From an uncultured virus (IMG/VR IMGVR_UViG_3300013127_000001) (Duplodnaviria; Heunggongvirae; Uroviricota; Caudoviricetes): 64,000 bases of DNA. This document shows, piece after piece, positions 5,259 through 61,747 of this stretch; position 1 is the first letter of the stretch, and every line of letters starts with the position of its first letter. Below the pieces are notes generated by a model. It did no database searches, was not told the DNA's origin, and worked only from the letters and a program-made list of their open reading frames with translations. The translations under genes and the position numbers were made by a program. The DNA is taken from IMG/VR virus record IMGVR_UViG_3300013127_000001, one strand, 5' to 3'.

Positions 5259-6206
5259 TTAGGTGAAGTCGACACGGGCCAGACCGGAAGTATGACCGAT
5301 CGTTCCGCCCAAAGATTCGTAAGCGAAGAATTCGATGAAGTAAGCTTCACGACGAATGTACATCGTGGTGTCTTCCAACATGTAGCTCTTGCCAATGAAC
5401 TTGGGATCTGCGAAGTGGTACATGGTGTTGGTTGGCACCAGACCCTTCTTGATCGTGATGACCCACTTGACGCCCATGCACTCGCTAAGAGTCCAGCCGT
5501 TACGCATGACTTCTTCGCTGAGGTCACCACCCATTTCGTTACGAGTAAACTTCGCAACTTCCTTGATGGTGATGTTGTTGAGCAGAACGCAGTGAACTTC
5601 GAGGTTCGACGGCGTGTTGGGCATGATTTTCAACGAATCCCAGAGAGTATCACGAGTGATACCACCGGCGATTTGCTGATATTGAACCGTACCCGACGTT
5701 GGCACAACAAGCCCGGGGCCTACCAAGGCAGTGTTCACTGCCGAAATAAACTTACCGTCCTCTTCAGCGAGCATGTCCTTGATAGCGTTGTCGCTAAGGA
5801 CCTGTCGAATATCCATGTACCAAGTACGCAGTTCGTCGACATCTTTCGTGAACTTTGGAGTCACGATACGGTCGAACGTAACCTTGTAGCGGTCGCCACG
5901 AATATAGAGGTTGGTCGGCAAAGTTGCAAAAGGAATAGAAACAGCAGCAGGGCTGTCTGGTTCCTTGTCCACAATCTTAACCGGCTTGTCGGTGTCGACT
6001 TGACGATCAAGATCGTCGTTGCTGATCGGAACAGGTGGCATGATTCGACGGTAGAAACCATCTTCACGCATCTTGGTCCGGGTGAAGTCGTTAACCGCGT
6101 CTACAGCCTGCTTTTCCAGGCTCGGATCGCGGGACGACAGCTTCTCGAAAATCGCCTGGCTCAAGAGTTTACTTTCCTCTTGAGTCATTACGCTTGAGTT
6201 AGCCAT
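5259..6206 (-). CDS. Major capsid protein (HK97 fold)
   Basis: 315 aa; strong RBS; ...REDGFYRRIMPP..., IVTPKFTKDVDELR...DIRQVLSDNAIKDMLAEEDGKF spine-helix-like pattern; position after protease, scaffold and decoration genes. Confidence 0.8.
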   Translation of the reverse strand: MANSSVMTQEESKLLSQAIFEKLSSRDPSLEKQAVDAVNDFTRTKMREDGFYRRIMPPVPISNDDLDRQVDTDKPVKIVDKEPDSPAAVSIPFATLPTNLYIRGDRYKVTFDRIVTPKFTKDVDELRTWYMDIRQVLSDNAIKDMLAEEDGKFISAVNTALVGPGLVVPTSGTVQYQQIAGGITRDTLWDSLKIMPNTPSNLEVHCVLLNNITIKEVAKFTRNEMGGDLSEEVMRNGWTLSECMGVKWVITIKKGLVPTNTMYHFADPKFIGKSYMLEDTTMYIRREAYFIEFFAYESLGGTIGHTSGLARVDFT

Positions 6207-8656: not shown

Positions 8657-10141
8657 CTAGTTAAAAACTTGATTCTGACAGAGACTCAACTTGACTGTCA
8701 ATGGAAAGTCTGCGTCAGCTGCGGCGAGCCGCCACAGGCTTGCCAGTTTATACATTGCGTAGTCTTTAGCCAACCTCTCGGCCGAATCGTCACAGCTTGC
8801 AAACTTCTCATACACAAAAATCGCAGGAGCGCTTTGCCCCCGGATACAACTTAGAATGCTCCGGTCACTTACCGCAGACTGACTTAATGAATAATCAGAA
8901 GTCAATGTTGCGGCAAGCATCCTGGAACTTTCATTTGCTGTCTTCTCAATAAACACACAAGCGCCACTCTCTACTCGCAGAGGTAGCGACTCGTCCGTCG
9001 TCATTCGTGTGTAAATTCCAGGCAGAATAGCCGCAGCAGTTTTACAATGCTCTTCACGACCAACTAACCTAGAATAATCACGCAAATTCAAAATAATCTT
9101 GCGATCCGCAAGCGCTGCAAGCTGCATATCGCATTGTACCGAACCGAACGCAGCGAGCTTTTCAACGGGAAAAGCAGGCGTTATCAGCGCTCGATACATA
9201 TTAGCATCTAATGATTCCCGGATTTTTTCAATAGCAGCAAGGCCATAACCTAGCCGAATTTGTGCAGCTTGTTTTTCTGACCAGAAGCCGTGATGTCCGC
9301 TTTGATACAGAATAACATCAACAGGAGCAGTCGAAGACTCAGCCATTTTGATATAGTCCTGCATCTCAAAAATGCCACGATCAGCTGCGGCTTTAGTCAA
9401 GTAATCAGCTTTGGCTCCGTAAGCAATTCGATCGGCTGGACGGAAAACGCGACTAATATCAAACCAAGTTGGATTTGGATTATCAACATGCAAATGATGT
9501 AAATCACTGCCAACTTTAACAAGCCGTGTCAAATTATCTCGACAACCTCCAGCAGCACATTTCTCCGTCGTACAATATTCATCTCGCGTGCGAGCAGCAT
9601 GCTTGCAGAAAGAACAAACATCATGAGGCACTCGACACGCCATGCTAACAGGCATGTCTTCGCCTCTTGCAAGTTTTTCAAGTTCAGTATCAGCAACGAA
9701 TCCGCCATTGCGATCTGCCGCGGACTTTTCGGCATTTAACGCACAAAGCAGTTCAACGCGACGCATGTCTTCATTGTAGGCTGACGCCTTAACCACTCCG
9801 TAAAACGGATCACCTCGTTCTGCTTTGTTTTTGTGGTTTCTAAAAAACTTGGCAAACTTTACGAACGTATCGTGATGGTTGCGACAAGTCGCTTCTTTGA
9901 AACCATCTCCGTTGCGATTTGGCCCATAAGCCTCACTAGCACCCAACGCAATTAGATGGACAGGTACTTCATCTGCTGCAAACTTGACGTTGTCTAATGC
10001 GGGCAGAAAGGCATGACTGGCTCGTTTAAGAAACTCATTCCTGTCATTACCAATTAAACCTCGACTACTTACCTTTATAGGTTCAAGAATCCGTTCTTCA
10101 AAATCCCAACCCGAAGGCGAGACAAACTTAATGTGTGCCAT
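8657..10141 (-). CDS. Prohead (capsid maturation) protease with Cys-rich insert and K-x-A-rich C-terminal half
   Basis: GPNRNGDGF, FRNH (His), VSMAC (Ser), CSFC...C...C insert, FDISRVFRPAD; pattern of HK97-type phage prohead serine proteases and canonical position upstream of scaffold/MCP. Confidence 0.7.
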   Translation of the reverse strand: MAHIKFVSPSGWDFEERILEPIKVSSRGLIGNDRNEFLKRASHAFLPALDNVKFAADEVPVHLIALGASEAYGPNRNGDGFKEATCRNHHDTFVKFAKFFRNHKNKAERGDPFYGVVKASAYNEDMRRVELLCALNAEKSAADRNGGFVADTELEKLARGEDMPVSMACRVPHDVCSFCKHAARTRDEYCTTEKCAAGGCRDNLTRLVKVGSDLHHLHVDNPNPTWFDISRVFRPADRIAYGAKADYLTKAAADRGIFEMQDYIKMAESSTAPVDVILYQSGHHGFWSEKQAAQIRLGYGLAAIEKIRESLDANMYRALITPAFPVEKLAAFGSVQCDMQLAALADRKIILNLRDYSRLVGREEHCKTAAAILPGIYTRMTTDESLPLRVESGACVFIEKTANESSRMLAATLTSDYSLSQSAVSDRSILSCIRGQSAPAIFVYEKFASCDDSAERLAKDYAMYKLASLWRLAAADADFPLTVKLSLCQNQVFN

Positions 10142-10153
10142 AGAAATAATGCC

Positions 10154-11443
10154 TTACTGGTTTTGCGCGCGATATTGGTTTTCTAGGTTGCCGTATTCTT
10201 GTTGTGCTTGCGCACGATCTGCACTTTGATCTTGGTAATTACCTAACAAAGCACCCGCAGCTCCAGTACCAAGAGCTGTAATCAGCGATGGAATAATAGC
10301 CCGAGGATTTTTAAGTCCACGCAAACCATCTCGGCTTATGTTTTTTACTAGTGCGTCTGAATCTTTACCAAATAACGACCGTAGCTTTGCAAGAATACTT
10401 GTTTGGCCACCTCTAAAAGCAGGATTGCTGCGGCTTCCAAACAAAGTAGACGTCAAACTAGGGGTATGCCCTTGAGCTTTTAATTGTTGAGCAATTTGCT
10501 GTTTCAGCGCGTCGTCAGTTGAACCTATGAACTCGTTCATTTGCCGTTGTGCCGCTGTATTTTTGAGTTCTTCAAAAAAGCCTTTACCCATTAGATTATC
10601 AAATTGTTGAATACCTGCTGCGTTAGGGTTTTTGCTGCCAATAAGATCTTTGTATTTTACTGCAAGCTCATTTGTTAAAAGTTTGGGATCATAAGTTTCT
10701 CGACTCAAACTTCTAGCAATACCATAACCGGTACCTGCGGCTGTACCTGTAAGACCTGCACCTAATATAGCTTCAGGCGCATACGTGCTAGCCTCACCGT
10801 GAAGTTTGTTTAGCTCGTCAGGACTAATCTTCTCAAGACTACGTGGTTCTTTTACTGTTGCGGGAGTTGCTGGTGCTTGTCCTGCTGGTGCTTGTCCTGC
10901 TGGTGCTTGTCCTGCTGGTGCTTGTCCTGCTGGTGCTTGTCCTGCTGGTGCTTGTTTTGGTAGTCGGTTTTGTAACTGTGCGTATAACTTGTCAGCTACG
11001 CCTGGATTTAGAGCTAGACCTAAACCGCCACCCAAAGCACCGCCAGCGACACCACCACGTAAAGCACTAGTCAAGTAATTGTCATCGCCACTCATTGCAG
11101 CTTGACCAAGACCAGCAGCAGCGCCGAGTCCTGTACCTGTTAAACCTGCCAGCAACGTGTTACGAGATGCCGGATCAAGATTACGATAATAGCTCTTTGC
11201 TTGATCTAAACCAGTTCTAGCCTGCTGCCCGAGCTGCCCAATTCCGGATTTTAAGCTGTCTAACCACCCACCTTCGGCCATCTTTTCAGCATAACTGTGG
11301 CCGATGTCTCGAAGCACAAGCGTATTCTCTAGCGCCTCAGGTGTCATGCGACGAATACGGCCCTGATCCATTGCTTGTTTACGCAATGCTAGCAACTTCA
11401 AACCTTGTTCGTAAGTAATATCAGCTAATGATACTGGCTTCAT
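10154..11443 (-). CDS. Glycine-zipper internal virion-like protein
   Basis: RKQA, AEKMA then hydrophobic GxxxG segments (AGLTGTGLGAAAGLG, GGVAGGALGGGLG); no Cys seen. Confidence 0.7.
   Translation of the reverse strand: MKPVSLADITYEQGLKLLALRKQAMDQGRIRRMTPEALENTLVLRDIGHSYAEKMAEGGWLDSLKSGIGQLGQQARTGLDQAKSYYRNLDPASRNTLLAGLTGTGLGAAAGLGQAAMSGDDNYLTSALRGGVAGGALGGGLGLALNPGVADKLYAQLQNRLPKQAPAGQAPAGQAPAGQAPAGQAPAGQAPATPATVKEPRSLEKISPDELNKLHGEASTYAPEAILGAGLTGTAAGTGYGIARSLSRETYDPKLLTNELAVKYKDLIGSKNPNAAGIQQFDNLMGKGFFEELKNTAAQRQMNEFIGSTDDALKQQIAQQLKAQGHTPSLTSTLFGSRSNPAFRGGQTSILAKLRSLFGKDSDALVKNISRDGLRGLKNPRAIIPSLITALGTGAAGALLGNYQDQSADRAQAQQEYGNLENQYRAQNQ
10868..10955. repeat. 15-bp tandem repeat (~5.9 copies) encoding (GQAPA)n
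   Basis: tgctggtgcttgtcc repeated perfectly. Confidence 0.95.
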
Positions 11444-17430: not shown

Positions 17431-20400
17431 TTATTTTGCCTGCGATGCCCAGCTGCGGTAGTTAACTAGCCCAGCTTCCGCTTCGGCTATTTCTTGTTCC
17501 AATCTTGCACGGTGACTGGGATCTCGTTGAGCTTCCGGCGAACGAAGTTCTTGCGACAGAGTAATTATTCGGTTTTTCTTGCCCTTCACAGCATTACGTA
17601 CATAGTCATTAAAATCACCTGTACCAAAGTAGCCAACTTCTTGGCTGTACAGTTTAAGCAACCCATTGTACTCGGTTTTTTGATTTTCAAGCCGTTCTTT
17701 CCGCACTTGTTGTTCAGGCGTAAGATTTCCTTGCGCTGCAAAAGCAGCCAGCTCTGAGTCAATACTTTTTGTTGTTCCAACAATGGCATCACGGAAATTG
17801 TGACCACCGCTTAACCAATTCTGCTTACCTATATTCCAATTTGCAGTTTCATCATCTAGCGCGTTTGCTCTTGCTTGCGAATCTTGAATCTGCTTGTCCA
17901 GTTCGTCTGCTTGTTGTTGTTTTTGTTGTCTCATTGCAGGAGACATTGTCTGACTTTGCGCAGCTTCTAGTCTGATACTATCTCGCTGTTTCGCAAATTC
18001 CTGTTGTTGCTGTGTTTCAAGTTTTTGCGAAAGCTGTCTGTCAGTGTCCGCTGCGCGGCTGTTTGCATCTGTTCCGGTAATGATGTCTGTAGCTTTATTG
18101 ATTGCAGCGTTTTGGAATTCCATACCGGTTTCCCAAGTCTGCGTACCTGCACCAGCAATCATCTGCACGTTTTCTACAGGACTGAGAACTTGCAATGGTG
18201 CTTGATACAACGTGTGCCAGCCGTCTTTGAACGAAAGAATGTCTCTAAATTTTTGAGCTGTATCGTTTGTAGTCTGATCCCAGCCTTTATTGTATAGATT
18301 GTGTCCTACATTAACACTCTCTAGTGCGACACCAACAGGTACAGCAGCTTTACCTACGACTTTCATTGTGTTACCTAAAAAACCAGTCGCCTTTGCTGCC
18401 GCAGCAGCGTCATCTGCTACAGATGCTGTTTGTGCCGCTGCTCGCCCTAAGCCAGCAGCATTACCGATTGTCGAATTGCCACTTCGTGCTGCGGCCACGG
18501 CAGACGGTCCAAAATTCATTGCTTTGATTGTGTTATCGTAAATCTGAGATGCTGCTGAAGGTGATTGGTCACCTAATACCTGGTCAGAAGGTGATGCCTC
18601 CGAATTTGAAAATTCAGGTGAAACTTCTGGAGTGAATGTTGGAGGTGTAGGCAAAGACGGTGGCGATGCGGGCAAAGGCGGCGGAGCTTTTGGCGAGCTA
18701 GGCGGAGGTACCGGCATTCTAGCTGGAGGCGAAGTAGGTACACCTGGAAACGTAGGAGCTGTTGGTTCAAAATCCAAATCAGAATCCCTGGAACTAGGCA
18801 AAAAACGCGTATGTCCCGCAGATGTTGCTAAAGTGCTAAAACTCCTTTGCAATTGCATCCAATCAGTTTGCGCCTGCGCCGGAGTTACAGGTAACGGCGG
18901 TTTGGGCGTACCTACAGGTGTTTGCTGCGGTGCTTGTTGTGGACTTGAAGGCATTTGTGCCGTAGGTTTAATTTCAGTAGCAACGCTGCTTGTTGGCATA
19001 ATGTTATTGTCGTTGTTTCCAGTTACCGGAGGCTGTGCCGCCAAAGTATTCGCTGATAATCTTGGCGTCTTAGGTGTACCCTGGAGTCCAGTGCCTTGTG
19101 ACTTAGGCTCTTCAGCAAGCTTGTAACGACCACCAAAAAAAGTGTGGTTAGCAAGTTTAGGTGGAGCAACAGGTTCTGGTAATTCAGGAACTTCAACCTT
19201 AGGTAATTGGTACGGTGCTTTCGGTTTAACCACAGCACGTTCAGGTACTGAACCAAAATCAGTGCCAGTTGCAAGGCTTGGAACAAAACTTGTTCCTCGC
19301 TCTTCGCTTGTACCGCCTCGCGCCACAGACTCGAGCAAACTCTTTTTAAGCCCTGACCCGTACATCTGAGTCATCCAGTCCGGATCATGTTGCAACTGAT
19401 ACATGCCGCGAACCATATGCGGCTCAAACGGTGGTGGGTTCTTATGAACCGGCACAGTTGTTACACCAAATTCTTCAAAGTCTTTCAACATTGAAGGGCG
19501 AATCTTTGTACCAATTGTGTAGTGCAATACAGGCCGTTCAAGATACTGACCTACTGCTTTCCTAGGTGTAAGTCGTTCGTGGCCTTCTCTAGGCTTGTAA
19601 GTATGCTCCAGCGTAGAGTAAGGAACGATATCGTCTGGCGCATTGTCTTCAGTTTCTTCTGTTAACCTCACATGATTGATCAATCCACGTGCCAGTAACT
19701 CGATGTTACGTCGATGCCCTTGCATACCTGAGTTTGACATTGCCTTGCGAAACTCGTTAACAAAATACCGACGACCTTCGCCTACACCTTTGTACTGCGT
19801 GATAAGTGCAGGATTTGGAATACCGTCAGAAAGCATATCCCCGGCTTCAATCTCATCGCCTTTCTTGACTTTGACTTCAAAACCTTCACCCACGTAATGC
19901 TTCTGATCATTAATTGTTACAAAATGACCGCCAGCAGGTGCAGGTTCAACTCTCTGCACGACACCATCAACAGTAGCATGTGAAGCACCGCCCTGCATCT
20001 TTTTCGGTACTTGAATTAGCTGGTTGATGTACTGAAAACCACCAACGGCTTTTTCTTGTCCTGCCACACCCCCGGAATGCTTGGCAGATAATTGCCCTTG
20101 ACTGATCGGCTCACTAAGAGCCTGCGCTGCTTGTAAACCAACCTGTTCTCCACGACCAGGCAACGTACCGTTTTCTCTGATTCCAACGTCTCGCGCGTAC
20201 ACGCCACCTTCGGGACTACCACCAACAAGTGGACTGCGAATCAGCAGTCGTTTAACTCCTAGCCTATCGAGATGCTTGAGAATCTTAGGTGTCAACGGCG
20301 TATGCTTTTTGTAAGGCCCAGCGTCTCTTGCCAGCAAAGCACCTTCATTATCCATATCGCCTGTGTCTACAATCATACCACGCGCAGGCGCTTCTGGATC

Positions 20401-21093
20401 TGTGTCTTCTTCTCCATCTTCGCCCATGACAACAAGACGATGACCGGCCTGATTAAGCTGCTTAGACAAAAAACCAGCTTCCTGCGTTGCAAACTTAGTC
20501 GCAATAATACCTCGTCTTGCGCCGTAAGTGCCTGCCCAATACTCCTCCGGCGAAAGGCCTTCGCTGTAGCTGCGAAGCACTGGAATAGGAATAACTTCAT
20601 CACGGTGGTCCGAATAAAGCATGTCTGCCGCAAGTAAGCTTGCTAGGTTCATCGGCTTTCCGCGGCTACCTGACAAAACTTGCATACCTAACGGATTACC
20701 TGATTGAATTGCTTCTTCCAGTACTGCTTTTTGCTGTGAAGAAGATTCTCGGCCAACAACTCGAATGATTCTGTCAGTTCGCTGCTGATCTGTTAATGAA
20801 TCGTCAGCTAAAATTCCGCGCAATTCGCCTTGAATACGCTGCCTAACTTCATTGGCGACTTTACTGCGACGAAGATGCCGCATACCGAAAGACATACCAC
20901 CTTGATCTTGAGCAGCGCGTTGGCCTATTTGATTCATCCGAAAAGATACTTCACGGTACTTTTCAGGGTGTTGTCTTGCTACTTGCTGCAACAACGAATG
21001 TACTCCCTTATTATCGAGTACACGAGAATAGTCTCGCAACTCTTCGGGAAGTGCATCATTGATTAATAGCTGACCAACAGTCGTATTAAGCAT
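17431..21093 (-). CDS. Phage RNA polymerase beta' C-terminal subunit fused to a ~600-aa Pro-rich linker and helical domain
   Basis: TTVGQLL; SGSRG; bridge helix YGARRGIIATKFATQEAGFLSKQL; trigger loop GEQVGLQAAQALSEPISQGQLSAKHSGG; HRRNIELLAR. All align by eye to the C-terminal two-thirds of bacterial RpoC. Confidence 0.9.
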   Translation of the reverse strand: MLNTTVGQLLINDALPEELRDYSRVLDNKGVHSLLQQVARQHPEKYREVSFRMNQIGQRAAQDQGGMSFGMRHLRRSKVANEVRQRIQGELRGILADDSLTDQQRTDRIIRVVGRESSSQQKAVLEEAIQSGNPLGMQVLSGSRGKPMNLASLLAADMLYSDHRDEVIPIPVLRSYSEGLSPEEYWAGTYGARRGIIATKFATQEAGFLSKQLNQAGHRLVVMGEDGEEDTDPEAPARGMIVDTGDMDNEGALLARDAGPYKKHTPLTPKILKHLDRLGVKRLLIRSPLVGGSPEGGVYARDVGIRENGTLPGRGEQVGLQAAQALSEPISQGQLSAKHSGGVAGQEKAVGGFQYINQLIQVPKKMQGGASHATVDGVVQRVEPAPAGGHFVTINDQKHYVGEGFEVKVKKGDEIEAGDMLSDGIPNPALITQYKGVGEGRRYFVNEFRKAMSNSGMQGHRRNIELLARGLINHVRLTEETEDNAPDDIVPYSTLEHTYKPREGHERLTPRKAVGQYLERPVLHYTIGTKIRPSMLKDFEEFGVTTVPVHKNPPPFEPHMVRGMYQLQHDPDWMTQMYGSGLKKSLLESVARGGTSEERGTSFVPSLATGTDFGSVPERAVVKPKAPYQLPKVEVPELPEPVAPPKLANHTFFGGRYKLAEEPKSQGTGLQGTPKTPRLSANTLAAQPPVTGNNDNNIMPTSSVATEIKPTAQMPSSPQQAPQQTPVGTPKPPLPVTPAQAQTDWMQLQRSFSTLATSAGHTRFLPSSRDSDLDFEPTAPTFPGVPTSPPARMPVPPPSSPKAPPPLPASPPSLPTPPTFTPEVSPEFSNSEASPSDQVLGDQSPSAASQIYDNTIKAMNFGPSAVAAARSGNSTIGNAAGLGRAAAQTASVADDAAAAAKATGFLGNTMKVVGKAAVPVGVALESVNVGHNLYNKGWDQTTNDTAQKFRDILSFKDGWHTLYQAPLQVLSPVENVQMIAGAGTQTWETGMEFQNAAINKATDIITGTDANSRAADTDRQLSQKLETQQQQEFAKQRDSIRLEAAQSQTMSPAMRQQKQQQADELDKQIQDSQARANALDDETANWNIGKQNWLSGGHNFRDAIVGTTKSIDSELAAFAAQGNLTPEQQVRKERLENQKTEYNGLLKLYSQEVGYFGTGDFNDYVRNAVKGKKNRIITLSQELRSPEAQRDPSHRARLEQEIAEAEAGLVNYRSWASQAK

Positions 21094-21108
21094 CCGTGCG
21101 TCTCCGGC

Positions 21109-21792
21109 CTAGTCGTCGCCTTCTTCTACTACACCGAATACAGCAGCTACATCCGCTTCTGTGATTTCTTCTTGCGATTCGGCAATGACACTTTCAACTT
21201 GTTTTTCAGTCGGTTCAAGAACCTTTACTGATTCTTTTTTCTTTCTGCCTTTTTTGTTGGCTTTCACTTTTGGAGGAGGAGGCATGATTTCGTCGATATC
21301 AGTTAGATCTGATTTTTGCTCAACCTGCTTAAGCACCGGTTCAAGAACAAGGGAAACATGTGGAGCAGGTTGTATTTCTTTAATTGCGTCAAAAATAAAC
21401 GCAACTCCGTCAGCTTGTTCTCGAGTCAGTACGTTCCTGCCCACTGCCATATCTACCGCAGTCTGCGCTTGTCGAACATGTTCAGGCGAATTGCAAAACA
21501 CTTGAATGTGAGTTGCATTGGCTTGAATCGAAGTAATGATTTCTGAAACAATCGTTTGCGGTTGCTCCATTCGCAAAATTGCCAATTGTTTAGTTGGCTT
21601 TACAGCGACAGGTCCTACAGGTTCAGCTGCTGATGCGTAGTACTTATTGGAAGAAGCTGTTAAATCGCTACCTTTGTGCTGATAACTAGGAAATGTTGGT
21701 GGATTCTTACGTCCTTCCCTTGTACCGCGAAACTCCAACGGCGTCTTTGAGCCGTAATATGCTTTATCAACACTTCGTAGCGGATCAGCCAT
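21109..21792 (-). CDS. Hypothetical protein between RNAP genes
   Basis: 227-aa ORF in operon. Confidence 0.65.
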   Translation of the reverse strand: MADPLRSVDKAYYGSKTPLEFRGTREGRKNPPTFPSYQHKGSDLTASSNKYYASAAEPVGPVAVKPTKQLAILRMEQPQTIVSEIITSIQANATHIQVFCNSPEHVRQAQTAVDMAVGRNVLTREQADGVAFIFDAIKEIQPAPHVSLVLEPVLKQVEQKSDLTDIDEIMPPPPKVKANKKGRKKKESVKVLEPTEKQVESVIAESQEEITEADVAAVFGVVEEGDD

Positions 21793-21793
21793 C

Positions 21794-22018
21794 TTACACC
21801 TTTAGTTTCGTAGAAATAACTGTCTCATTGATTCCTAACTTCTGTAAGTTAGCATTAAAATTCTGATCTTCACAGTGCGAGACTAAAACACTTTCTGAAG
21901 TTCCAAACAAAGCTGCAACACAAACGGGTGTACCGTTTGGCATGCGAATTACCACTTGAGAAGCCTCCACGCGAAGTGGAGGCTGTCCAATGGATTGAAT
22001 AATTTCAACAAAAAACAT
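21794..22018 (-). CDS. Small hypothetical protein between RNAP genes
   Basis: 74 aa, AAAGG RBS, tightly packed. Confidence 0.6.
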   Translation of the reverse strand: MFFVEIIQSIGQPPLRVEASQVVIRMPNGTPVCVAALFGTSESVLVSHCEDQNFNANLQKLGINETVISTKLKV

Positions 22019-22033
22019 CGGATAGCCTTTCTA

Positions 22034-22717
22034 TTAAGAAGCAACCCGATTTCGCAAAACAAGTGCTGCGGCCAGATTCGCAGTATTGCGAGTACTGGCA
22101 TGTGCTTCCTTCAACACTTGCGGATATTCGTACGCAGTGCCTGCTTCCCATTCTTCTCCCGCAGCTTTCATTGGCTGAATAGGTGCAATCTGACCTAAAC
22201 CTCCACCTTTGCCTCCGTCAGGAGTTGCCGCTGCAAAACCAGCACCGCCTTGTGCAATTTGGTTCAAATCTTCCGGCGTTGCGACCATGTCTTGAGCCGG
22301 GATATGAATACCCATAGCATCCACAATCTTAGCCAACATTTTCTTGATCTGCATAATCTCAACGTTGACATCAATCTTAGGCTTGATGCCCGGGCCACCG
22401 GCTTGCGGGCCACTTTGACCGCCGCCACCTCCATTTGCTGCCATTGCTTGCTGAACTGCCATTTGAATCATCGGCATTAATGCAGCCATAGGATCACCAC
22501 CGCCTGACGGAGGCGCACCGCCTGCCGCAGCAGGATCCATTGGAGGCGCACCGCCTGCCGCAGCAGGATCCATTGGAGGCGCACCGCCTGCCGCAGCAGG
22601 ATCACCTCCTGGAGGAGCTGCACCCATAGACGGATCGCCCACAGCCACAAAAGCCATCTTGTCGAGCTGCCGAACGTTTTGGCGAGCCTGTTCCAACAGT
22701 TTAGTGTTAATGGTCAT
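22034..22717 (-). CDS. Gly/Pro/Met-rich low-complexity K-x-A protein
   Basis: LDKMA|F, PMKAA, VLKEA; AAGGAG RBS. Confidence 0.7.
   Translation of the reverse strand: MTINTKLLEQARQNVRQLDKMAFVAVGDPSMGAAPPGGDPAAAGGAPPMDPAAAGGAPPMDPAAAGGAPPSGGGDPMAALMPMIQMAVQQAMAANGGGGGQSGPQAGGPGIKPKIDVNVEIMQIKKMLAKIVDAMGIHIPAQDMVATPEDLNQIAQGGAGFAAATPDGGKGGGLGQIAPIQPMKAAGEEWEAGTAYEYPQVLKEAHASTRNTANLAAALVLRNRVAS
22509..22603. repeat. 33-bp tandem repeat (~2.9 copies) encoding MDPAAAGGAPP
   Basis: ggaggcgcaccgcctgccgcagcaggatccatt repeated. Confidence 0.95.
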
Positions 22718-22744
22718 CAGAAACTCCTTATCTGCTTCAAGCAG

Positions 22745-25700
22745 TTATGATTCTAAGATTTGAACGCGATCATCAATAGACACATCGCCTCGTTCGTAAG
22801 CACGACGCATGTCTGCAAGCGTACGAAAAATCTTTTTCGGTCGCTCGCTTACCGACTTAGTCGCGTGATACAGACCACCAATATACTCATTTGCTGGTGC
22901 GTGCATCACTGACTTAAAGTCTGACAGACTAAACAAGTTTCGGCTAGGCAAAAGTCTTTCAATTGCCTCTTTCCTTGCTTCTTCAGTACTTGGAACGTGG
23001 TAGTTCATAGCATCGCCATCAAAATCCGCATTGAAACCTTTTACAATTAGCGGACTGATTTGCAATGTGCTGCCTTTGGTAATTCTAGGCTTCATAGCCA
23101 TAATTCCAAACTTGTGAAGCACCGGCGCACGGCTAATATACACCGGCCGATTGTCCATTTCTTCCATCAGTATTTCACGTGCTAGCTTAGTCTTGTTTGC
23201 AACTTGCTCTCGAGCAGCTCGCAAAGACATACCCTGGCGAACAAGACGACGAGTTACAAACTTATCGTATGCTTTGAAAGCTTGCTCTTCCGGCAATCCA
23301 ACTGAGTCCATATCCAGGTCTGGATTCGGGGTAATTACAGCCCGGCCAACATTATCTACCGTGGTAGAAATCAGTTTACGTTGTAACGTACCGAACTTCG
23401 GGCTGCTTCCAAATACGGATTTTAAGATGCCTTGAACCTTACGATCGCGGCTTTTTTGACTGATTGGATCTCCTAATCCAGTTACCGCCTTAAACGCATT
23501 GTAAGTTGCCAAGCGTTCTGGTCCGGACGCATTTGAACCAAGCTCACCTTGAATTGCTTTCAAGTTTGAGTTCGCTTCAAACAACTCCTTGTACAAATAG
23601 TTTGCATCGTTAATTAGCGGCATGTCGTTAGACATCATACTTACTGGCCTGAATTGCGGTGGCAATACAGGCACTTTCGAGAGCACATAATCACTAGGTT
23701 TCAATCCAAGCTTTTGTGCGCTTTTAAGATAACCTAGTTTACGCACTGCTGCGTCTCGTTCTGAAGCTCGACCTGCCGAAATAACATTACGCGTCTTTTC
23801 AATCTCTTTCTCGAGATTCATGTCCTCAAGCGCTTTCTTTATTGCCTGAGGCCCGCTGCCGTGCTTAGATAAGTTTTCAGTGCCAGTAATAATGCCTTGA
23901 AATTGCTTTTGCGTTAGCCCTAGCATTTTACGAATCGGTTCTTCCATAACAGGATTTGGCATTGGCTCATGCAGTCGCATAAAGCTCCAACGATTTCCAC
24001 CGTGTCCACCTGTTTTAGAACGATCAAACAAACCGCCTGGAATTTCTTTTAGATCGTTATTCCAGTCAACACCTTCCGCACTGGTAATCTCACGATCACC
24101 CGCAAGCTCATCAATGTCTTTGTCTGTTAAAGCCATGATGTTGGTTTGAGTGCCTTGCTTAACTACGTTCACACCTGCTGCTCGAAGTTGGTTGACAAAC
24201 TTCTGATAAACATGCGGAACCTTAGTAGCTTGCGGATTGTAACCTGACATAAACTGAAGCCAGTATTGATCGTTCTTCTGTCCGCGAACTGCGCTAATGT
24301 CTTGTAACGTAGATGTTGCGCCGTGAGACAGCAGTGCGTTAGTATCAAGCATACCAATGCGCTTTGAACCTTCAGCTCCACCTTTTGCCGGTGTATCTTC
24401 CATCGTGTAAGCACCACCGCCGCGACCTTGAGTTTTACTTTCGGCCGTATGATGCAGCTTCATGAAAAACCGATTACCGGTAGCAATACCCTTAATCTTT
24501 TGCTCTTTTGAAGGATCGACAATATCCTCCAAATCTGATAATCCTTCTTTGCCTAACTCCTGCATGACCCACTCAGCCATGTCTTTAGAACTATCAAAGT
24601 CTTGTACCTTGATTGGTTTTCCTCGCTTAGCTGCAATTTTACCCAGAAGCAGCTCTGCCATTTGCGCTGGATTCGTTCGCGTAATTACGCCGAGAGGATT
24701 CAATAACACTTCAAAAAGCTGACCGTCGGCACCACGCGGCATTTGATCATCTGGAATGACGTCAGCAATGACCCCTTTGTCCCCATAACGTCCCGATAGT
24801 TTATCTCCAACTTTAGTCGTGCTGGCAGCTTTAACAACAACAGTCGGCCCTGTTTTACCCATGACTACGTCGGTAACAACTCCAGGGTCATGATGGTTCC
24901 AAAGCACAGTTGCGTCGTTAAAGCCTGACTGACTTTGCTTGTGAACTTTGTTGTACGCAGATTCTTTTTGAGTCGCCCCCAAGATCAACGGATCACCATA
25001 CTGCACTTCCGTACCTGGCTTAATAACACCATTGTCATCCAGTTTAGCTAACGTAGCCTTGTCAAACTTGCCGGGGAAAAGCTGAATGAACGACTTCTTC
25101 CCAAACTTAGTTTTATCGTTTAACTCCAACTCATGTTGGTACATGTGCTCAGAGGCCATCTTTTTTGCAAAGCCTTCTGAAATTACTACTGCGTCTTCAA
25201 AGTTTTTACCTTGCCAAGCAATGTAAGCTGTACGGGCATTGCGCCCTAAAGCTGTAGCGCCGGTAGAATCAGTAAAGTTAGAACGAGCTAACAGCTGATT
25301 TGGCGTAAATCTGTCCCCAGGCCTGACAGCTGCGGCCTGATGAATAAACGTCTTACGGTTAAAAGGAAAATTCTGATACAAGTCATGAGTTTCTTCAGAG
25401 CCGTCCTCGTAACGTACTTTGATTTCGTCATCTGTGACCGCAGTAACTATACCCCCCTTTGGAGCTCGCAAAGCGCCCATTGCTTTAGCATACTGCTCTT
25501 CAAAACTTTCACTACCATCAGTGCCTGGAACTGCGGACTGAACCAGCGGTGCCTCGGCTTCTCGAATTGGTAATGCTTGCGTTGTCATACGGCTAGCCAT
25601 GACCAAACGCTGACCTTTGACTTGACTCTTCATTGGAATGATGTTTGACAATGGATTGAATGCCTCTTCCATTGCAGGAAGCTCAAGATCAATCTCACTC

Positions 25701-27193
25701 TTAGGTACATACATCATCTTGCCGCCACGCATAGCCGCTACTCGAGGACTATCACTTTGTTGACTACCGGGAAACCCGATAGTCATGTCCGCAACTTGCT
25801 GTGGTGTTTTGAACATCAGCTCGCCAGTACGAACATCCCTAAACTGAGAATACAGCTTGCCATCACTGCCTTTCTTTGCTCCTCTCGCAAGATAAGTATC
25901 AACACCTACTTTTCCTGACTCGGGTGTACGCAACGGATCCACGTAACCGAACATAGAAGGCTGAACGCTTCTAGCTTCTTTCGGAATTGCGTCAGTGCTT
26001 GGAATCCCGCCCTCACCTAGACGACTTACCGCCGTAGTTTTGTCATATAGCTCAGCCGGGTTAATTTCTTCAATCGCCTGTCCAAGTCCGCTAGTCATCA
26101 ACGCAGCCATTAGTTGCTTACCTAATGCGCTTGAAGGCATACTTTGTAAATTACCTTTTCCAGATATTTGCCAAAGCAGCTGTCTACGCAATCCACCTTT
26201 ATCTCTCGCAATGCGTTCAGCAAACAAGTCTTCAGGCCCCATAAATTGCTGATATGTTAAAGCATCACGATCGTCAGGTTCTTCTTCGTTACGACTGACT
26301 CTTACAAGCTTCTTCGTAATGTCTAAGACTGCATCTAATGTTAGATTTTTGTGTGGTTTGCCCAGCGTGCGACGTGTGACTTCTGGATCCAGTTCCATCT
26401 TGGCAAACTTATCAATCAATGCTTGACGCTGACTAGGTTCATCACCTTGCATCTCTTTTGCACTAAGAAACTTTTGCTTTAGCTTCTTGTATTCTGCCGC
26501 ATCATCAGCATTGTAATTGGAGGCAAAAAGATCTCTTCCCCAAGCCTCTTTCATTTGATCTGGAGTTGCTCCTAGGGCTTTTAGCAGCGGAGTTAAACCT
26601 ACCGTACCTTGCCCGACGCGAATTTTGAATTGACCTTTTTCTGGGTCAAGAAAATATCGGTGAGATACACCTTTGCCTGGCATGATGTTAGCGTGCGACT
26701 CGATTTCACCATTATCTCGAACGCGTGTGTAAACCCCAGGCAATAATCGCTGCTGGTTCTTCAGCGTATACTCTGTGCCATTATTGATAAACGTACCGCG
26801 TTCAGTTAGGTAAGGAACGCTAGCCAAGACAGATCGCTTACGATCAATAACTTGCTGTGTTGCGTTATCAACAAGTTCCCAGGTGCCTCGCAGCCTTCTG
26901 CCGCGACTTAATCCGTTCAAGATTGCGGCCTTCTGGTCTCGCTTACTGACTCGTTCAGGATCTTGATAGTCAACTTCCGACAAACGCAGCGTGTGCCGGT
27001 CATTTGATATAGGCTCAATGCTTCTAGCCGCACTCAGCACATTATCGTAAATCCTAGTCCTAGTCTTGTCGGTGTCACCAAAGTCACGGTAATCGACCGC
27101 GGAAGCTGGTGGTTGCACCGGAGCAACTGGAGGAGCCGGAGTTAAGAGCGAAGGTGCGTTAGGCTCAAGCAAATTTGGCGTGAGCGGCTCCAT
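22745..27193 (-). CDS. Phage RNA polymerase large subunit: full beta fused to the beta' N-terminal part with the catalytic motif
   Basis: beta motifs GTFINNGTE, DPLRTPESGKVG, NFEDAVVISE, GDKLSGRYGDKGVI, LNPLGV, MKLHH; beta' motifs PVLPPQFRP, GRAVI, RAPVLH, NADFDGD (23012-23032). Confidence 0.95.
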   Translation of the reverse strand: MEPLTPNLLEPNAPSLLTPAPPVAPVQPPASAVDYRDFGDTDKTRTRIYDNVLSAARSIEPISNDRHTLRLSEVDYQDPERVSKRDQKAAILNGLSRGRRLRGTWELVDNATQQVIDRKRSVLASVPYLTERGTFINNGTEYTLKNQQRLLPGVYTRVRDNGEIESHANIMPGKGVSHRYFLDPEKGQFKIRVGQGTVGLTPLLKALGATPDQMKEAWGRDLFASNYNADDAAEYKKLKQKFLSAKEMQGDEPSQRQALIDKFAKMELDPEVTRRTLGKPHKNLTLDAVLDITKKLVRVSRNEEEPDDRDALTYQQFMGPEDLFAERIARDKGGLRRQLLWQISGKGNLQSMPSSALGKQLMAALMTSGLGQAIEEINPAELYDKTTAVSRLGEGGIPSTDAIPKEARSVQPSMFGYVDPLRTPESGKVGVDTYLARGAKKGSDGKLYSQFRDVRTGELMFKTPQQVADMTIGFPGSQQSDSPRVAAMRGGKMMYVPKSEIDLELPAMEEAFNPLSNIIPMKSQVKGQRLVMASRMTTQALPIREAEAPLVQSAVPGTDGSESFEEQYAKAMGALRAPKGGIVTAVTDDEIKVRYEDGSEETHDLYQNFPFNRKTFIHQAAAVRPGDRFTPNQLLARSNFTDSTGATALGRNARTAYIAWQGKNFEDAVVISEGFAKKMASEHMYQHELELNDKTKFGKKSFIQLFPGKFDKATLAKLDDNGVIKPGTEVQYGDPLILGATQKESAYNKVHKQSQSGFNDATVLWNHHDPGVVTDVVMGKTGPTVVVKAASTTKVGDKLSGRYGDKGVIADVIPDDQMPRGADGQLFEVLLNPLGVITRTNPAQMAELLLGKIAAKRGKPIKVQDFDSSKDMAEWVMQELGKEGLSDLEDIVDPSKEQKIKGIATGNRFFMKLHHTAESKTQGRGGGAYTMEDTPAKGGAEGSKRIGMLDTNALLSHGATSTLQDISAVRGQKNDQYWLQFMSGYNPQATKVPHVYQKFVNQLRAAGVNVVKQGTQTNIMALTDKDIDELAGDREITSAEGVDWNNDLKEIPGGLFDRSKTGGHGGNRWSFMRLHEPMPNPVMEEPIRKMLGLTQKQFQGIITGTENLSKHGSGPQAIKKALEDMNLEKEIEKTRNVISAGRASERDAAVRKLGYLKSAQKLGLKPSDYVLSKVPVLPPQFRPVSMMSNDMPLINDANYLYKELFEANSNLKAIQGELGSNASGPERLATYNAFKAVTGLGDPISQKSRDRKVQGILKSVFGSSPKFGTLQRKLISTTVDNVGRAVITPNPDLDMDSVGLPEEQAFKAYDKFVTRRLVRQGMSLRAAREQVANKTKLAREILMEEMDNRPVYISRAPVLHKFGIMAMKPRITKGSTLQISPLIVKGFNADFDGDAMNYHVPSTEEARKEAIERLLPSRNLFSLSDFKSVMHAPANEYIGGLYHATKSVSERPKKIFRTLADMRRAYERGDVSIDDRVQILES

Positions 27194-27196
27194 CAC

Positions 27197-28078
27197 TTAT
27201 TCTTGCTCCGACTCAACAGGCGTAGGAACTGCGTAAATCTCGGGTGGTTGTATTTTAGCTTGGCGTCTTGCTCGTTCTTCCATCGCTTTTCGCAATAAAG
27301 ATTGCTTACTGTTTCTTTGCATCGCTTTGTTGACTAAGTGATAGCCCAACGGTGCTGTTGCCGCAGTGTAAGCTAAACCCAAACCTAAACCAGCTCCAGT
27401 CAGATTTGGTGATATCTTATCAGCTAACCATGCAAGTGTAGACTTAGATTGCTCGGGATCTGCTTGTTTATACAAGTTGAACGCAGTATCTAGCGCTTCG
27501 TCAGTTCCTTTTTTGTAAGAGCCAAGCAACGCTTTTTCATACTCTGCCTTGGCTCGATCAAGATCGCTGTCAACTTCTTTTTCTCGCTGCTTATTCAGAA
27601 TCGCGTCAACACCTTTCCAGCCGCCGTAAGCTGCCAGCGGTGCACCTAGTAACATTGCTGGAGCAAAGTAATCCAAGCCAATTTGGGAAGTAGCTTTAGA
27701 GTTATCGTTACCAAAAAGCGCTTGCTTCTCAGGATAAGCAACGGGCATTTCTACCGTACGCTGTGTTTTTTTACGACGCTTACTGTCTGACAAATTAGTC
27801 AAACCAGAGTAACCACGAACAGCTGCACCTAAACCACCTGCCAACAACATAGTTTTTATGATGTTTTTGGTCGCATCTTCTTGCAGCTTAGTATTATGTC
27901 TTTGCTGTACATGTGCGTTTATTACTGCCGGATCGACTAAAGGCTTCGGCCCGGCTACGCTTTTGAATGCACCTTTGAGTCCGCTCGTGGCGTTGCCGAT
28001 AAGTGAGCTTAAACTCCAACCTTCGTTTTCAGCTTTTTTGATCTCTCCAAGCAAATTTTTAGCGTCGTTTGCGTCCAT
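27197..28078 (-). CDS. Glycine-zipper K-x-A protein
   Basis: IKKA, PEKQA|LF, LYKQA, each followed by a hydrophobic Gly/Ala segment. Confidence 0.7.
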   Translation of the reverse strand: MDANDAKNLLGEIKKAENEGWSLSSLIGNATSGLKGAFKSVAGPKPLVDPAVINAHVQQRHNTKLQEDATKNIIKTMLLAGGLGAAVRGYSGLTNLSDSKRRKKTQRTVEMPVAYPEKQALFGNDNSKATSQIGLDYFAPAMLLGAPLAAYGGWKGVDAILNKQREKEVDSDLDRAKAEYEKALLGSYKKGTDEALDTAFNLYKQADPEQSKSTLAWLADKISPNLTGAGLGLGLAYTAATAPLGYHLVNKAMQRNSKQSLLRKAMEERARRQAKIQPPEIYAVPTPVESEQE

Positions 28079-28094
28079 GAAACAGCCCTGCAAA

Positions 28095-59754: not shown

Positions 59755-59788
59755 AGACGCCTCCTTGGCCTTTGAAGTGTGAGCAGTA

Positions 59789-61747
59789 TTATCGTGCAAC
59801 AAGGCGTTGCAAAGCAATTTGAGCTGCGGACTTTTCTTCGTCATCAGCTTGATCTTTCTGACTGCGAAGCATCCACAAGTGCTTTTCTAGCTTGTGGGTC
59901 ATGTCTTGCAGCATATTGCTAGTAACAGGATCTGAGTCGGTGCTTTTGATCGCTTTGTTGAACATGTCGCACAAGCTTTTCAGCCTGGTTGTCAGCTCGT
60001 TAACAATTAAAGGCGGGCTCATGAACTTTAGCGGGAGCGCCGCCATCGCCGTTTGAGCTGCCATTTCTTCCACCAGACCAGAAGCTGGGTGACCCAACGC
60101 AACCATCCTTTCGGCAATGTCATCGCTTGTCTCCACAAGAGTACCGTAAACTTCATCCAAAAAGTCATGCAGCGGCTTGAACATGGTGCCTCGAGCATTC
60201 CAATGACAATGCTTAAACAACAGGCTCAGGTCGATGCAGTTAAAAACCAGATTTTGTAGCGTGTCTTGCATGCCGTCAGCTGCTTGTTTCATTGGACTAC
60301 CTTCTTCTCTTAAAACGTCACGAAACTGCTCGTTGAGCTTCTCCTTGCGAGCAGCCAGCGCTTCAAGGATTTCGTCACCTGTACGTTGCCGCTTAGCTCC
60401 CAAAAGTCTCATTATAAGCGATGGGTCTTGACTTTCCGAGATGTATCTACGCACTGCTACGTTTTTTAGATCTTCTGGTAGCCCAGTATGACTGTCAAAG
60501 CGCAAACCACGGCCGCGAGCCTGACTAGAACGGCTTTCATGCCAGTGCGGATCAAGCAACTGGATCAAGTTCGTGCCTTTAGTACTAATGCCTTCTGCCC
60601 CAGCAGGACCAAGCAGCAAAGCTCTGAGCTTACCTTCGTTATAATCTTGCAGAGCTTGTCGTCGTGCCTGTACTGGCATGCTGCCGTGGAACATGCCATA
60701 AGGTATCTTGTCTCGCTTGAGTGCCGCAGCATAAGGCTGGAGCCCTGCATCAATGTAGTTGGAGTAGATAATTGCTTTCTTACGCGGATCAGTTTCAAGC
60801 TCTGCTTTGAGATCAGTCATGGCTTGCTGAAGCTTGCCAGACTCCTCAAACGCGTTTAGTGGATTCTTGTCTGCCCTGAACGGCATCGTAGAAAGACTGG
60901 ACTGCCGAAGACCTGTCAAAAAAGAGTTCAAACTAGCAAGTTCCTGCCTTGTTAGCGGAAACTCTTGGTCTAGCTTCCAGGCCCAACCTAGCGGAATTTT
61001 TGATCGAATGGCTTTCTGTATGCGTTTCTGGTCTTTAGACAGTGGTACACGCACTGTTTGCTCGTCAACGTTTACACCTTCAGGTGTCTTGCTAGGCTGA
61101 TAATCTACCTTGCCTTTGAGTAACTCGCGCAGCTTGGGCTCGTTTTTGAGCACACCTTCTTCACCTACGCCTTGGCCGGTAATGCGACTAAGCCAAGATG
61201 GGTAGACTTTCTTGTAACCAACAAACTGTTGCTCAAAGGTTTCAGGGCTTATTTGCTTGTTGTGCAGCAGGCTTAGCAAACCAGCCAAGTCGCTTGGTGC
61301 ATTAGTTACAGGCGTACCTGTAAGCAGCATCACGTTCTTGGCTTTTTGTGCTGCTTTGGCTGCGGCTCGAGAACTAGCAGTGTTTGGATTACGAAGTCTG
61401 TGTGCTTCGTCAAATATCAGCGTTTCGGTGTCTGGAGCTGGCTCTTTGCCCATACCAAGTCCGGTATAGCTTAATACCTCAGGCTGAGAGCCTTCTGTAA
61501 ACTTCTCAATCTCTTTCTCATAGTTTGGCCTGAGTGACGCAGGAGCCACAGCAGCATAAGGCCCACCAGCGGCTTCAGCTGCTGCCAGACTGGATAAGCT
61601 CTTACCGGAACCAAGTCCATGGTAAAGTAACAGCCGGTTATCTCCCTCCTGCAAGCGCTGTTTGACGCGCTCTTGATGCTCTTGAAGCTGTACGTCTGGC
61701 TTGAGCGCGGCTTGCTTGGCCAGTTCCGTAATTTGGGAAGCTACCAT
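59789..61747 (-). CDS. SNF2-family ATPase/helicase fused to a Dps (ferritin-like) domain
   Basis: HGLGSGKS, DEAH, LTGTP, AGAEG, QARGRGLR; then MKQAA and HCHWN...LHDFLDE...DDIAER, LEKHLWML. Confidence 0.9.
   Translation of the reverse strand: MVASQITELAKQAALKPDVQLQEHQERVKQRLQEGDNRLLLYHGLGSGKSLSSLAAAEAAGGPYAAVAPASLRPNYEKEIEKFTEGSQPEVLSYTGLGMGKEPAPDTETLIFDEAHRLRNPNTASSRAAAKAAQKAKNVMLLTGTPVTNAPSDLAGLLSLLHNKQISPETFEQQFVGYKKVYPSWLSRITGQGVGEEGVLKNEPKLRELLKGKVDYQPSKTPEGVNVDEQTVRVPLSKDQKRIQKAIRSKIPLGWAWKLDQEFPLTRQELASLNSFLTGLRQSSLSTMPFRADKNPLNAFEESGKLQQAMTDLKAELETDPRKKAIIYSNYIDAGLQPYAAALKRDKIPYGMFHGSMPVQARRQALQDYNEGKLRALLLGPAGAEGISTKGTNLIQLLDPHWHESRSSQARGRGLRFDSHTGLPEDLKNVAVRRYISESQDPSLIMRLLGAKRQRTGDEILEALAARKEKLNEQFRDVLREEGSPMKQAADGMQDTLQNLVFNCIDLSLLFKHCHWNARGTMFKPLHDFLDEVYGTLVETSDDIAERMVALGHPASGLVEEMAAQTAMAALPLKFMSPPLIVNELTTRLKSLCDMFNKAIKSTDSDPVTSNMLQDMTHKLEKHLWMLRSQKDQADDEEKSAAQIALQRLVAR

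What the first reader, a model, noticed from the sequence alone, without database searches (positions are those of the whole stretch)
17431..27193. Both RNA polymerase subunits (~2,700 aa) appear completely cysteine-free: likely virion-packaged, injected multisubunit RNAP
Seen: reading both translations (1483 and 1220 aa) I find no Cys, whereas neighbouring enzymes such as the RNR have many. The genes sit among head/K-x-A genes. Known: the N4 virion RNAP lacks Cys, attributed to passage through the periplasm. Inference: a bacterial-type double-psi-barrel RNAP that is packaged, unfolded and injected to start early transcription.
Basis: partly seen in the sequence, partly recalled or inferred. 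Interest (0 to 1): 0.85.

Follow-up and report, generated by a model that had tools for sequence, protein, structure and literature searches.

The report
Cysteine-free, zinc-free packaged phage RNA polymerase
An uncultured freshwater phage encodes a bacterial-type RNA polymerase in two chains with no cysteine and neither of the usual zinc sites, most likely because the enzyme, with its sigma factor and a helicase, is carried inside the virus particle and delivered into the host with the DNA.

Summary
Confirmed: 0 Cys in 2,702 residues, about 33 expected. The chains are not beta and beta'. They are beta fused to the catalytic front of beta' (1482 aa), and the back of beta' plus a ~560-aa passenger behind a Lys-x-Ala motif (1220 aa). 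Zinc ribbon I is deleted and zinc site II is substituted.

The rule holds in relatives: 0.007-0.022% Cys outside inteins, 2.1-2.3% inside them. So it acts on the mature protein. The sigma (5 of 5 relatives) and the helicase core are also Cys-free.

In cultured Salmonella phage Arash, the orthologues of both chains, the sigma and the helicase are among the best-covered virion proteins (PMC10585845).

Virion packaging is likely (~0.85), and injection for early transcription is probable (~0.75). The periplasm explanation is weak: these phages have tail sheaths, and phiKZ's injected RNAP keeps cysteines.

This scan has already reported the same feature, including the cleavable tail, on at least eight other windows. 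New variant of a known kind.

The parts
22745..27193 (-). ORF A, 1482 aa: whole RNAP beta (to about residue 1012) fused without linker to the N-terminal, catalytic half of beta'; 0 Cys
   Evidence: Pfam Rpb2_6, Rpb2_3, Rpb1_1, Rpb1_2; PDB beta' matches; model of residues 283-1482, mean pLDDT 81.2, matches bacterial RNAP beta chains at E about 1e-48
23012..23032 (-). Catalytic NADFDGD motif (residues 1388-1394 of ORF A), intact
23996..24037 (-). Place of the deleted beta' zinc ribbon (Zn-I); GLFD-x3-TGG(H)GG replaces GLFC..IFGP plus ribbon
   Evidence: Profile positions 36-79 align to beta' 13-54 and 109+ to beta' 150+, so 29 positions stand for 95 residues; the same short form in the loci printed, including Arash and D69
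19114..21093 (-). ORF B core (residues 1-660): C-terminal half of beta' (bridge helix, trigger loop region); 0 Cys
   Evidence: Pfam Rpb1_5; aligns to beta' 659-1167 of PDB 8k60_D
20182..20238 (-). Former Zn-II site: RSPLVGGSPEGGVYARDVG where bacteria and Arash have RS/TxxxC...GxCxxCxG
19114..19158 (-). Two K-L-A motifs (residues 646 and 658) at the core/passenger junction; predicted head-protease cut site (inferred, no cut observed)
   Evidence: K-x-A in the junction of 57 of 59 tailed close homologues (shuffle mean 22.8, max 35) and 91 of 118 distant ones (shuffle mean 51.9, max 67)
17431..19113 (-). Passenger of about 560 aa: Pro/Ser/Thr-rich linker (to 860), Ala/Gly-rich helices (861-1010), Gln-rich helical end; 0 Cys; swappable and dispensable
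   Evidence: composition; low-confidence helical model, no fold match; no match in complete genomes G004 and G006
21109..22717 (-). Two 227-aa ORFs of unknown function between the RNAP genes (1 and 0 Cys), syntenic in close relatives
59789..61747 (-). SNF2-type helicase, orthologue of Arash virion protein gp217 (34%); helicase core Cys-free, K-Q-A before a ferritin/Dps passenger with 3 Cys
8657..10141 (-). Probable prohead protease (14 Cys), candidate K-x-A cutter
   Evidence: 39% over 203 aa to Arash gp222, which hits the PHROG head maturation protease; Atlas neighbours S77/S78/S80
5259..6206 (-). Major capsid protein, orthologue of Arash gp226 (29%), with an aligned N-terminal K-x-A (EKQA / VKEA); 2 Cys

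Best explanation
The two genes encode the phage's only recognisable RNA polymerase, a bacterial-type two-barrel core split at an unusual point. It is made late and loaded into the prohead with a Cys-free sigma factor and a Cys-free SNF2 helicase. The head protease probably trims K-x-A-linked passengers, including the 560-aa tail on beta'C. On infection the chains leave through the tail in a loosened state and transcribe early genes without host synthesis. Cysteine was purged because thiols in a crowded, oxidising particle would cross-link cargo and block exit or refolding. Zn-I was lost in the lineage's common ancestor. The four Zn-II ligands were the last Cys kept (Arash, D69) and were then lost once in the large clade holding this window. 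SHOWN: identity, layout, Cys absence, loss of both zinc sites, family-wide rule, intein contrast, virion abundance of the Arash orthologues. INFERRED: packaging in this phage, K-x-A cleavage, unfolding, ejection, early role, and the chemical reason.
For: Homologues: 91 of the 120 best ORF A hits and 109 of the 120 best ORF B hits have no Cys. Outside long inserts 39/177,762 and 8/112,986 residues, inside inteins 183/8,061 and 34/1,591. In the 150 best 50%-identity representatives: core 21/95,522, inserts 461/21,429, tails 39/68,624. Neighbours in the same loci keep Cys: RNR 2.38%, protease 2.66%, the 857-aa protein 0.94%. Arash virion MS (PMC10585845 Table 2): Gp206 is the most detected protein. 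Unique peptides per 100 aa among 45 proteins I picked: sigma gp10 10.3 (0 Cys), capsid 9.8, gp206 8.4 (1 Cys), helicase gp217 8.1 (0 Cys), gp216 6.6, portal 5.5; primase 0.2, ligase 0.6, RNR alpha 1.4; terminase and the second sigma (3 Cys) not listed. A gp10-like sigma with 0 Cys in 5 of 5 close genomes, each with one RNAP beta match. The Zn-II-less forms lie on one side of a branch with SH-aLRT 100 (58 against 4 rows). Known injected cargo shows the same trait: Schitoviridae vRNAP 0.00075% Cys (PMC11445570); the 2180-aa phi14:2 structural protein has 2 Cys, both at its termini.
Against: No virion, protein or RNA data exist for this phage. The virion evidence is from a 30%-identical orthologue, purified on one sucrose gradient, with 116 proteins listed; the authors allow carry-over. 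PhiKZ vRNAP subunits gp178, gp180 and gp80 keep 13 Cys in 2,390 aa, so the trait is not required for injected multisubunit RNAPs. Arash capsid and tail proteins are Cys-free too, so the trait does not prove ejection. No alpha-subunit dimerisation domain was found in 5 of 5 relatives, so assembly without host alpha is unproven. Homologues are related and not independent. Only the best 120 of 2,123 and of 1,501 hits, and 150 of 4,040 representatives, were counted.
Confidence: 0.72

Rival explanations
1. One reading: cysteine is excluded specifically because the unfolded chains cross the host periplasm, where Dsb enzymes would form disulfides, as proposed for N4. Planctomycete hosts, hinted at by metagenome bins, would fit.
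For: Periplasm rationale and data for Schitoviridae (PMC11445570). Podovirus-type crAss cargo is Cys-poor. 9 of 19 genome-contig loci lie in Planctomycetota bins, the closest in a Gemmataceae bin at 72%. Inside the virion-associated set the purge is selective: the protease and the Dps passenger keep Cys.
Against: Tail-sheath homologues in 5 of 5 relatives and Arash; by established knowledge a contractile tube reaches the inner membrane. PhiKZ vRNAP keeps Cys. Arash gp216 keeps four Cys while it is in the virion. Bins are not host evidence.
Confidence: 0.3
2. The polymerase is an ordinary cytoplasmic, non-virion enzyme. Cysteine and zinc were lost for zinc economy or resistance to oxidative stress during infection, and the Arash proteomics signal is carry-over of an abundant protein.
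For: One RNAP beta match per genome, so the enzyme probably also serves later transcription. The Arash preparation holds metabolic enzymes. Both zinc sites are gone.
Against: Zinc economy explains 8 Cys, not the purge of non-zinc Cys in the RNAP, sigma and helicase. Cytoplasmic enzymes of the same phages keep 1-3% Cys, and inteins in the same chains keep about 2.2%. Likely carry-over enzymes give 2-11 unique peptides against 128 and 40 for the RNAP chains. A K-x-A-linked passenger sits on beta'C.
Confidence: 0.12
3. The RNAP is packaged but stays with the particle or the entry channel, anchored by the passenger's Ala/Gly-rich helices, and pulls the genome in by transcription.
For: Precedent proposed for DEV/N4 and P23-45 (passages). 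The passenger is Cys-free with Ala/Gly-rich helices.
Against: Best 19-residue hydropathy in ORF B is only 1.27. 51 of 110 anchored homologues lack a long tail. Tails fall into 91 unrelated clusters among 118. No match to this tail in two complete genomes.
Confidence: 0.08

Closest known systems
Salmonella phage Arash Gp206 + Gp216, sigma Gp10, helicase Gp217 (OQ632216; PMC10585845); Vibrio phages D69, D148, D181
   Same: Same beta+beta'N / beta'C layout (30% over 96% of ORF A), Zn-I deleted, nearly Cys-free; orthologous capsid, protease and helicase; K-x-A motifs
   Different: Arash and D69 keep the four Zn-II Cys and have no passenger on beta'C (606-609 aa). The sections I read note the RNAP in virions but not the Cys pattern, the zinc loss or the split.
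N4/DEV (Schitoviridae) virion RNAP
   Same: Cys-free, packaged; the model for how this may work
   Different: Single-chain T7-like enzyme of about 3,500 aa in podoviruses; unrelated fold
phiKZ virion multisubunit RNAP (gp178, gp149, gp180, gp80)
   Same: Two-barrel, split subunits, packaged and shown to be injected (PMC10612078 passages)
   Different: More chains and far more diverged; keeps Cys (13 in the 2,390 aa of three subunits fetched); phiKZ has a second, non-virion RNAP
crAss-like phi14:2 gp66 virion RNAP
   Same: Two-barrel, packaged, transcribes early genes under rifampicin (bioRxiv 2020.03.07.982082 passages); nearly Cys-free
   Different: Single chain, QDE-1-like, podovirus
mReC (Weinheimer and Aylward 2020, PMC7481178); YerA41 and RHph_Y65-type phage RNAPs
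   Same: Bacterial-like beta/beta' in tailed phages
   Different: Separate beta; YerA41 and Y65 keep CxC/CxxC clusters (16 Cys in 1,998 and 16 in 1,127 aa) and have a Gp23-type capsid, which this lineage lacks

Membership tests
Two-barrel multisubunit RNAP, bacterial type | Beta and beta' domains with intact NADFDGD | tested here: met
Two-barrel multisubunit RNAP, bacterial type | Two Cys4 zinc sites in beta' | tested here: not met
   Zn-I deleted, Zn-II substituted
Two-barrel multisubunit RNAP, bacterial type | Own alpha subunit for core assembly | tested here: not met
   PF01000 in 0 of 5 relatives, 14 of 14 controls; only stand-alone alpha-CTD frames in 3 of 5. The window's own genome is not held.
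Arash/D69-type phage RNAP | Beta fused to beta'N, separate beta'C, in a head operon with orthologous capsid and protease | tested here: met
Arash/D69-type phage RNAP | Gp10-like sigma and gp217-like helicase in the genome | tested here: inconclusive
   Helicase in the window and 3 of 5 relatives; sigma in 5 of 5 relatives, but no Pfam sigma match among the 58 window ORFs scanned
Virion RNAPs (functional class) | Present in purified virions | not testable with these tools
   Only for the Arash orthologues
Virion RNAPs (functional class) | Early transcription without host RNAP or translation | not testable with these tools
   No such experiment in the Arash sections read; 'rifamp' has 0 occurrences in its main text
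N4-like vRNAP | Single-chain T7-like polymerase | tested here: not met
   two-barrel domains
mReC | Capsid best hit PF07068 (Gp23) | tested here: not met
   No match in G004, Arash or D69; positive in YerA41 and Y65; no Pfam hit for the window capsid
mReC | Placement in the mReC clade of an RNAP tree | not tested
   mReC sequences were not fetched

The most novel reading that the evidence does not exclude
A widespread lineage of about 200-kb contractile-tailed phages packages a complete ready-made transcription kit (two-chain RNAP, sigma, SNF2 helicase). Its bacterial-type RNAP folds and works with no zinc, no cysteine and no alpha subunit after ejection, and its beta'C chain serves as a carrier that loads freely exchangeable passenger proteins into the head, to be cut off at K-x-A.
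Probability: 0.4. Interest if true: 0.8.

Novelty: new variant of a known kind. Interest (0 to 1): 0.6.

Why it matters
Both beta' zinc sites are kept in the cellular and YerA41/Y65-type RNAPs I checked, and by recalled literature they serve assembly and promoter or terminator contacts. A natural zinc-free, Cys-free two-chain enzyme, with living intermediates that keep only Zn-II, makes their role directly testable. It would also be a convenient enzyme for site-specific labelling. It extends the 'no cysteine in packaged cargo' rule from single-chain podovirus polymerases to a multisubunit enzyme of sheath-tailed phages, which challenges the periplasm explanation. A cultured model (Arash) exists.

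Tried and rejected
No whole genome is held for the window, so genome-wide questions were put to related virus records. Passenger: single-sequence model mean pLDDT 55.1, no Foldseek match at E<=0.001, Atlas scores <=0.85, no strong transmembrane segment; fold and function remain open. Protease against PDB sequences: nothing meaningful. A Pfam Sigma70_r2 search gave no match over the cut-off in 5 relatives, so a second sigma is not established there. No RNA holder was listed. No promoter analysis was done. The careful tree did not finish; the quick tree has no cellular outgroup and uses only residues aligned to the query. No complex prediction was run, since halves of a split RNAP would pass by likeness. 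Rejected: chance, codon-level bias, assembly error, zinc loss as sole cause, mReC membership. Literature searches that found no description of the Cys or zinc loss, the split or K-x-A processing in this lineage. The library lacks most subscription papers. The Arash supplements (xlsx not read, docx not readable) and preprint supplements may bear on this.
Full report
OBSERVATION. Both ORFs are real and contain no cysteine: 0 in 1482 and 0 in 1220 residues. Forty-six other hand-picked genes of the window average 1.22% Cys, giving 33.0 expected and P about 5e-15. Against the non-zinc rate of a cellular RNAP the core would still hold 7.8, P about 4e-4. The off-frames carry 44-74 TGY triplets each. 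A run not marked as a possible source shows the same DNA with no listed difference. The DNA occurs in freshwater and freshwater-sediment metagenomes, and ORF B's cluster sits on contigs up to 204,384 bases.

WHAT THE GENES ARE. ORF A is all of beta joined directly to the front of beta', including an intact NADFDGD at 1388. A model of residues 283-1482 built on 78 sequences is confident (mean pLDDT 81.2) and matches bacterial RNAP beta chains. ORF B residues 1-660 are the back of beta'. The remaining 560 residues are not polymerase.

ZINC SITES. Zn-I is deleted: 29 profile positions span what is 95 residues in bacterial beta', and Arash and D69 share the short form. Zn-II is substituted: the window reads RSPLVGGSPEGGVYARDVG where bacteria, Arash, D69, L050, L068 and L070 have the Cys ligands. 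In Arash gp216 and D69 these four ligands are the only Cys of the chain, and the large chain has 1 and 2. In a quick tree of 62 rows the 58 Zn-II-less rows form one side of a branch with SH-aLRT 100. Since cellular enzymes have Zn-II, the simplest reading is a general purge first and loss of the last ligands once, later. The tree has no cellular outgroup, so this order is inferred.

THE RULE IN RELATIVES. Both chains are Cys-free in 6 of 6 close loci. Of the best 120 of 2,123 ORF A hits, 91 have none; of the best 120 of 1,501 ORF B hits, 109 have none. Most remaining Cys lie in inteins: 0.022% and 0.007% outside long inserts against 2.27% and 2.14% inside. The best 150 of 4,040 representatives at 50% clustering agree: 0.022% core, 2.15% inserts, 0.057% tails, with 23 of the 39 tail Cys in three zinc-finger-like tails. 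Inteins splice out after translation (established knowledge), so selection acts on the mature chain. RNR, protease and the adjacent 857-aa protein keep 2.38%, 2.66% and 0.94%. Cellular and YerA41/Y65 RNAPs keep 0.37-1.42%.

VIRION EVIDENCE. The closest cultured relatives are Salmonella phage Arash and Vibrio phages D69, D148 and D181 (about 30% over 94-96% of ORF A). The window's capsid, probable protease and helicase also have Arash orthologues. In PMC10585845 (sections 11 and 16 with Table 2, and passages) Gp206 is the most detected virion protein (3,516 spectra, 128 peptides) and Gp216 is fifth. The preparation is a single sucrose gradient with 116 proteins, and the authors allow carry-over. 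I normalised unique peptides by length for 45 proteins picked from the regions fetched: sigma gp10 10.3 per 100 aa, capsid 9.8, gp206 8.4, helicase gp217 8.1, gp216 6.6, portal 5.5. Metabolic and replication enzymes give 0.2-2.9, and terminase and the second sigma are not listed. Raw spectra separate these groups less well (ligase 1.38 per residue, portal 1.51, gp206 2.31). Gp10 and gp217 have no Cys. Gp10-like sigmas in 5 of 5 close genomes have none, and each of those genomes has one RNAP beta match. The window's helicase core is Cys-free, while its Dps passenger behind K-Q-A has three; in relative L103 a different, Cys-bearing module occupies that place.

THE PASSENGER. Of 120 close ORF B homologues, 110 had my anchor motif: 59 tailed, 51 short. 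K-x-A lies in the junction of 57 of 59, against a shuffle mean of 22.8 (max 35 of 500) and 32 of 536 windows further along the tails. Among distant representatives it is 91 of 118 (shuffle mean 51.9, max 67), and the tails fall into 91 clusters. This tail has no match in two complete genomes. The same motif is aligned at the capsid N-terminus in the window and Arash and is dense in scaffold-region proteins. I infer a head-protease site; no cut has been observed. The tail's fold is unresolved.

Cys depletion is documented for Schitoviridae ejection proteins and attributed, as a suggestion, to periplasmic passage (PMC11445570 passages); unfolding of N4 vRNAP is still a model (PMC13434306 passages). 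But three of phiKZ's vRNAP subunits, an enzyme shown to be injected (PMC10612078 passages), hold 13 Cys in 2,390 aa; gp149 was not fetched. Arash's capsid and major tail proteins are Cys-free without being injected. Five of 5 relatives encode a sheath homologue. The trait therefore points to virion residence; the route and the cause remain open. Host is unknown: 9 of 19 genome-collection loci are in Planctomycetota bins, a hint only.

MECHANISM AND ODDS. Packaged about 0.85; delivered and used for early transcription about 0.75; passenger cut at K-x-A about 0.7; periplasm as the specific cause about 0.3. No alpha dimerisation domain was found in 5 relatives, so the core either assembles without alpha or borrows the host's.

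COMPARISON AND NOVELTY. It works like N4, crAss and phiKZ virion RNAPs but belongs to none of them. It fails the mReC capsid test (PMC7481178, parts 1-2 of 6 and passages). It belongs to the Arash/D69-type lineage, in the sub-clade without any zinc site. Searches found no paper describing the Cys purge, zinc loss, split or K-x-A passengers; subscription papers and the supplements I could not or did not read may. The scan has noted the same features on other genomes; these notes are not independent support. Verdict: real, a new variant of a known kind, interest 0.6.

Noticed in passing
P0050, P0065, P0069, P0073; L088: An intein sits at the catalytic motif itself: ADFDGN-C...I(Y/W)D-TMN. The residue before the intein is Asn where the third catalytic Asp should be, and the insert ends in Asp where inteins usually end in Asn. 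Canonical splicing would give DFDGN; how the Asp is restored, if it is, is unexplained.
   Followed up: partly
window 59789-61747 (-): SNF2 helicase fused through K-Q-A to a ferritin/Dps domain; in L103 the helicase carries a DUF6321-like module instead and Dps is a separate gene.
   Followed up: partly
window 57994-59844, 61996-63930, 10154-11443, 27197-28093 (-): Glycine-zipper-rich, mostly Cys-poor proteins with K-x-A motifs, likely head cargo; across 46 genes K-x-A density and Cys content are anticorrelated (Spearman -0.56).
   Followed up: partly
window 31053-57677 (-): Long block of sugar-nucleotide and modification genes: glycosyltransferases, RmlA/RmlC-like, GDP-mannose dehydratase-like, sulfotransferases, methyltransferases, cytidylyltransferase, a SET domain.
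   Followed up: no
G001, G002, G004: Stand-alone RNAP alpha-CTD frames of 104-124 aa, with no alpha dimerisation domain in the same records.
   Followed up: no
P0331, P0340, P0347: A few beta'C tails carry zinc-finger-like, Cys-rich modules, exceptions to the Cys-free tails.
   Followed up: no
window 950-2752 (-): Collagen-repeat tail-fibre-like protein, 600 aa.
   Followed up: no
L076-L094: This phage RNAP occurs inside bacterial MAG bins, 9 of 19 loci labelled Planctomycetota; such contigs could mislead rpoB/rpoC-based taxonomy.
   Followed up: no
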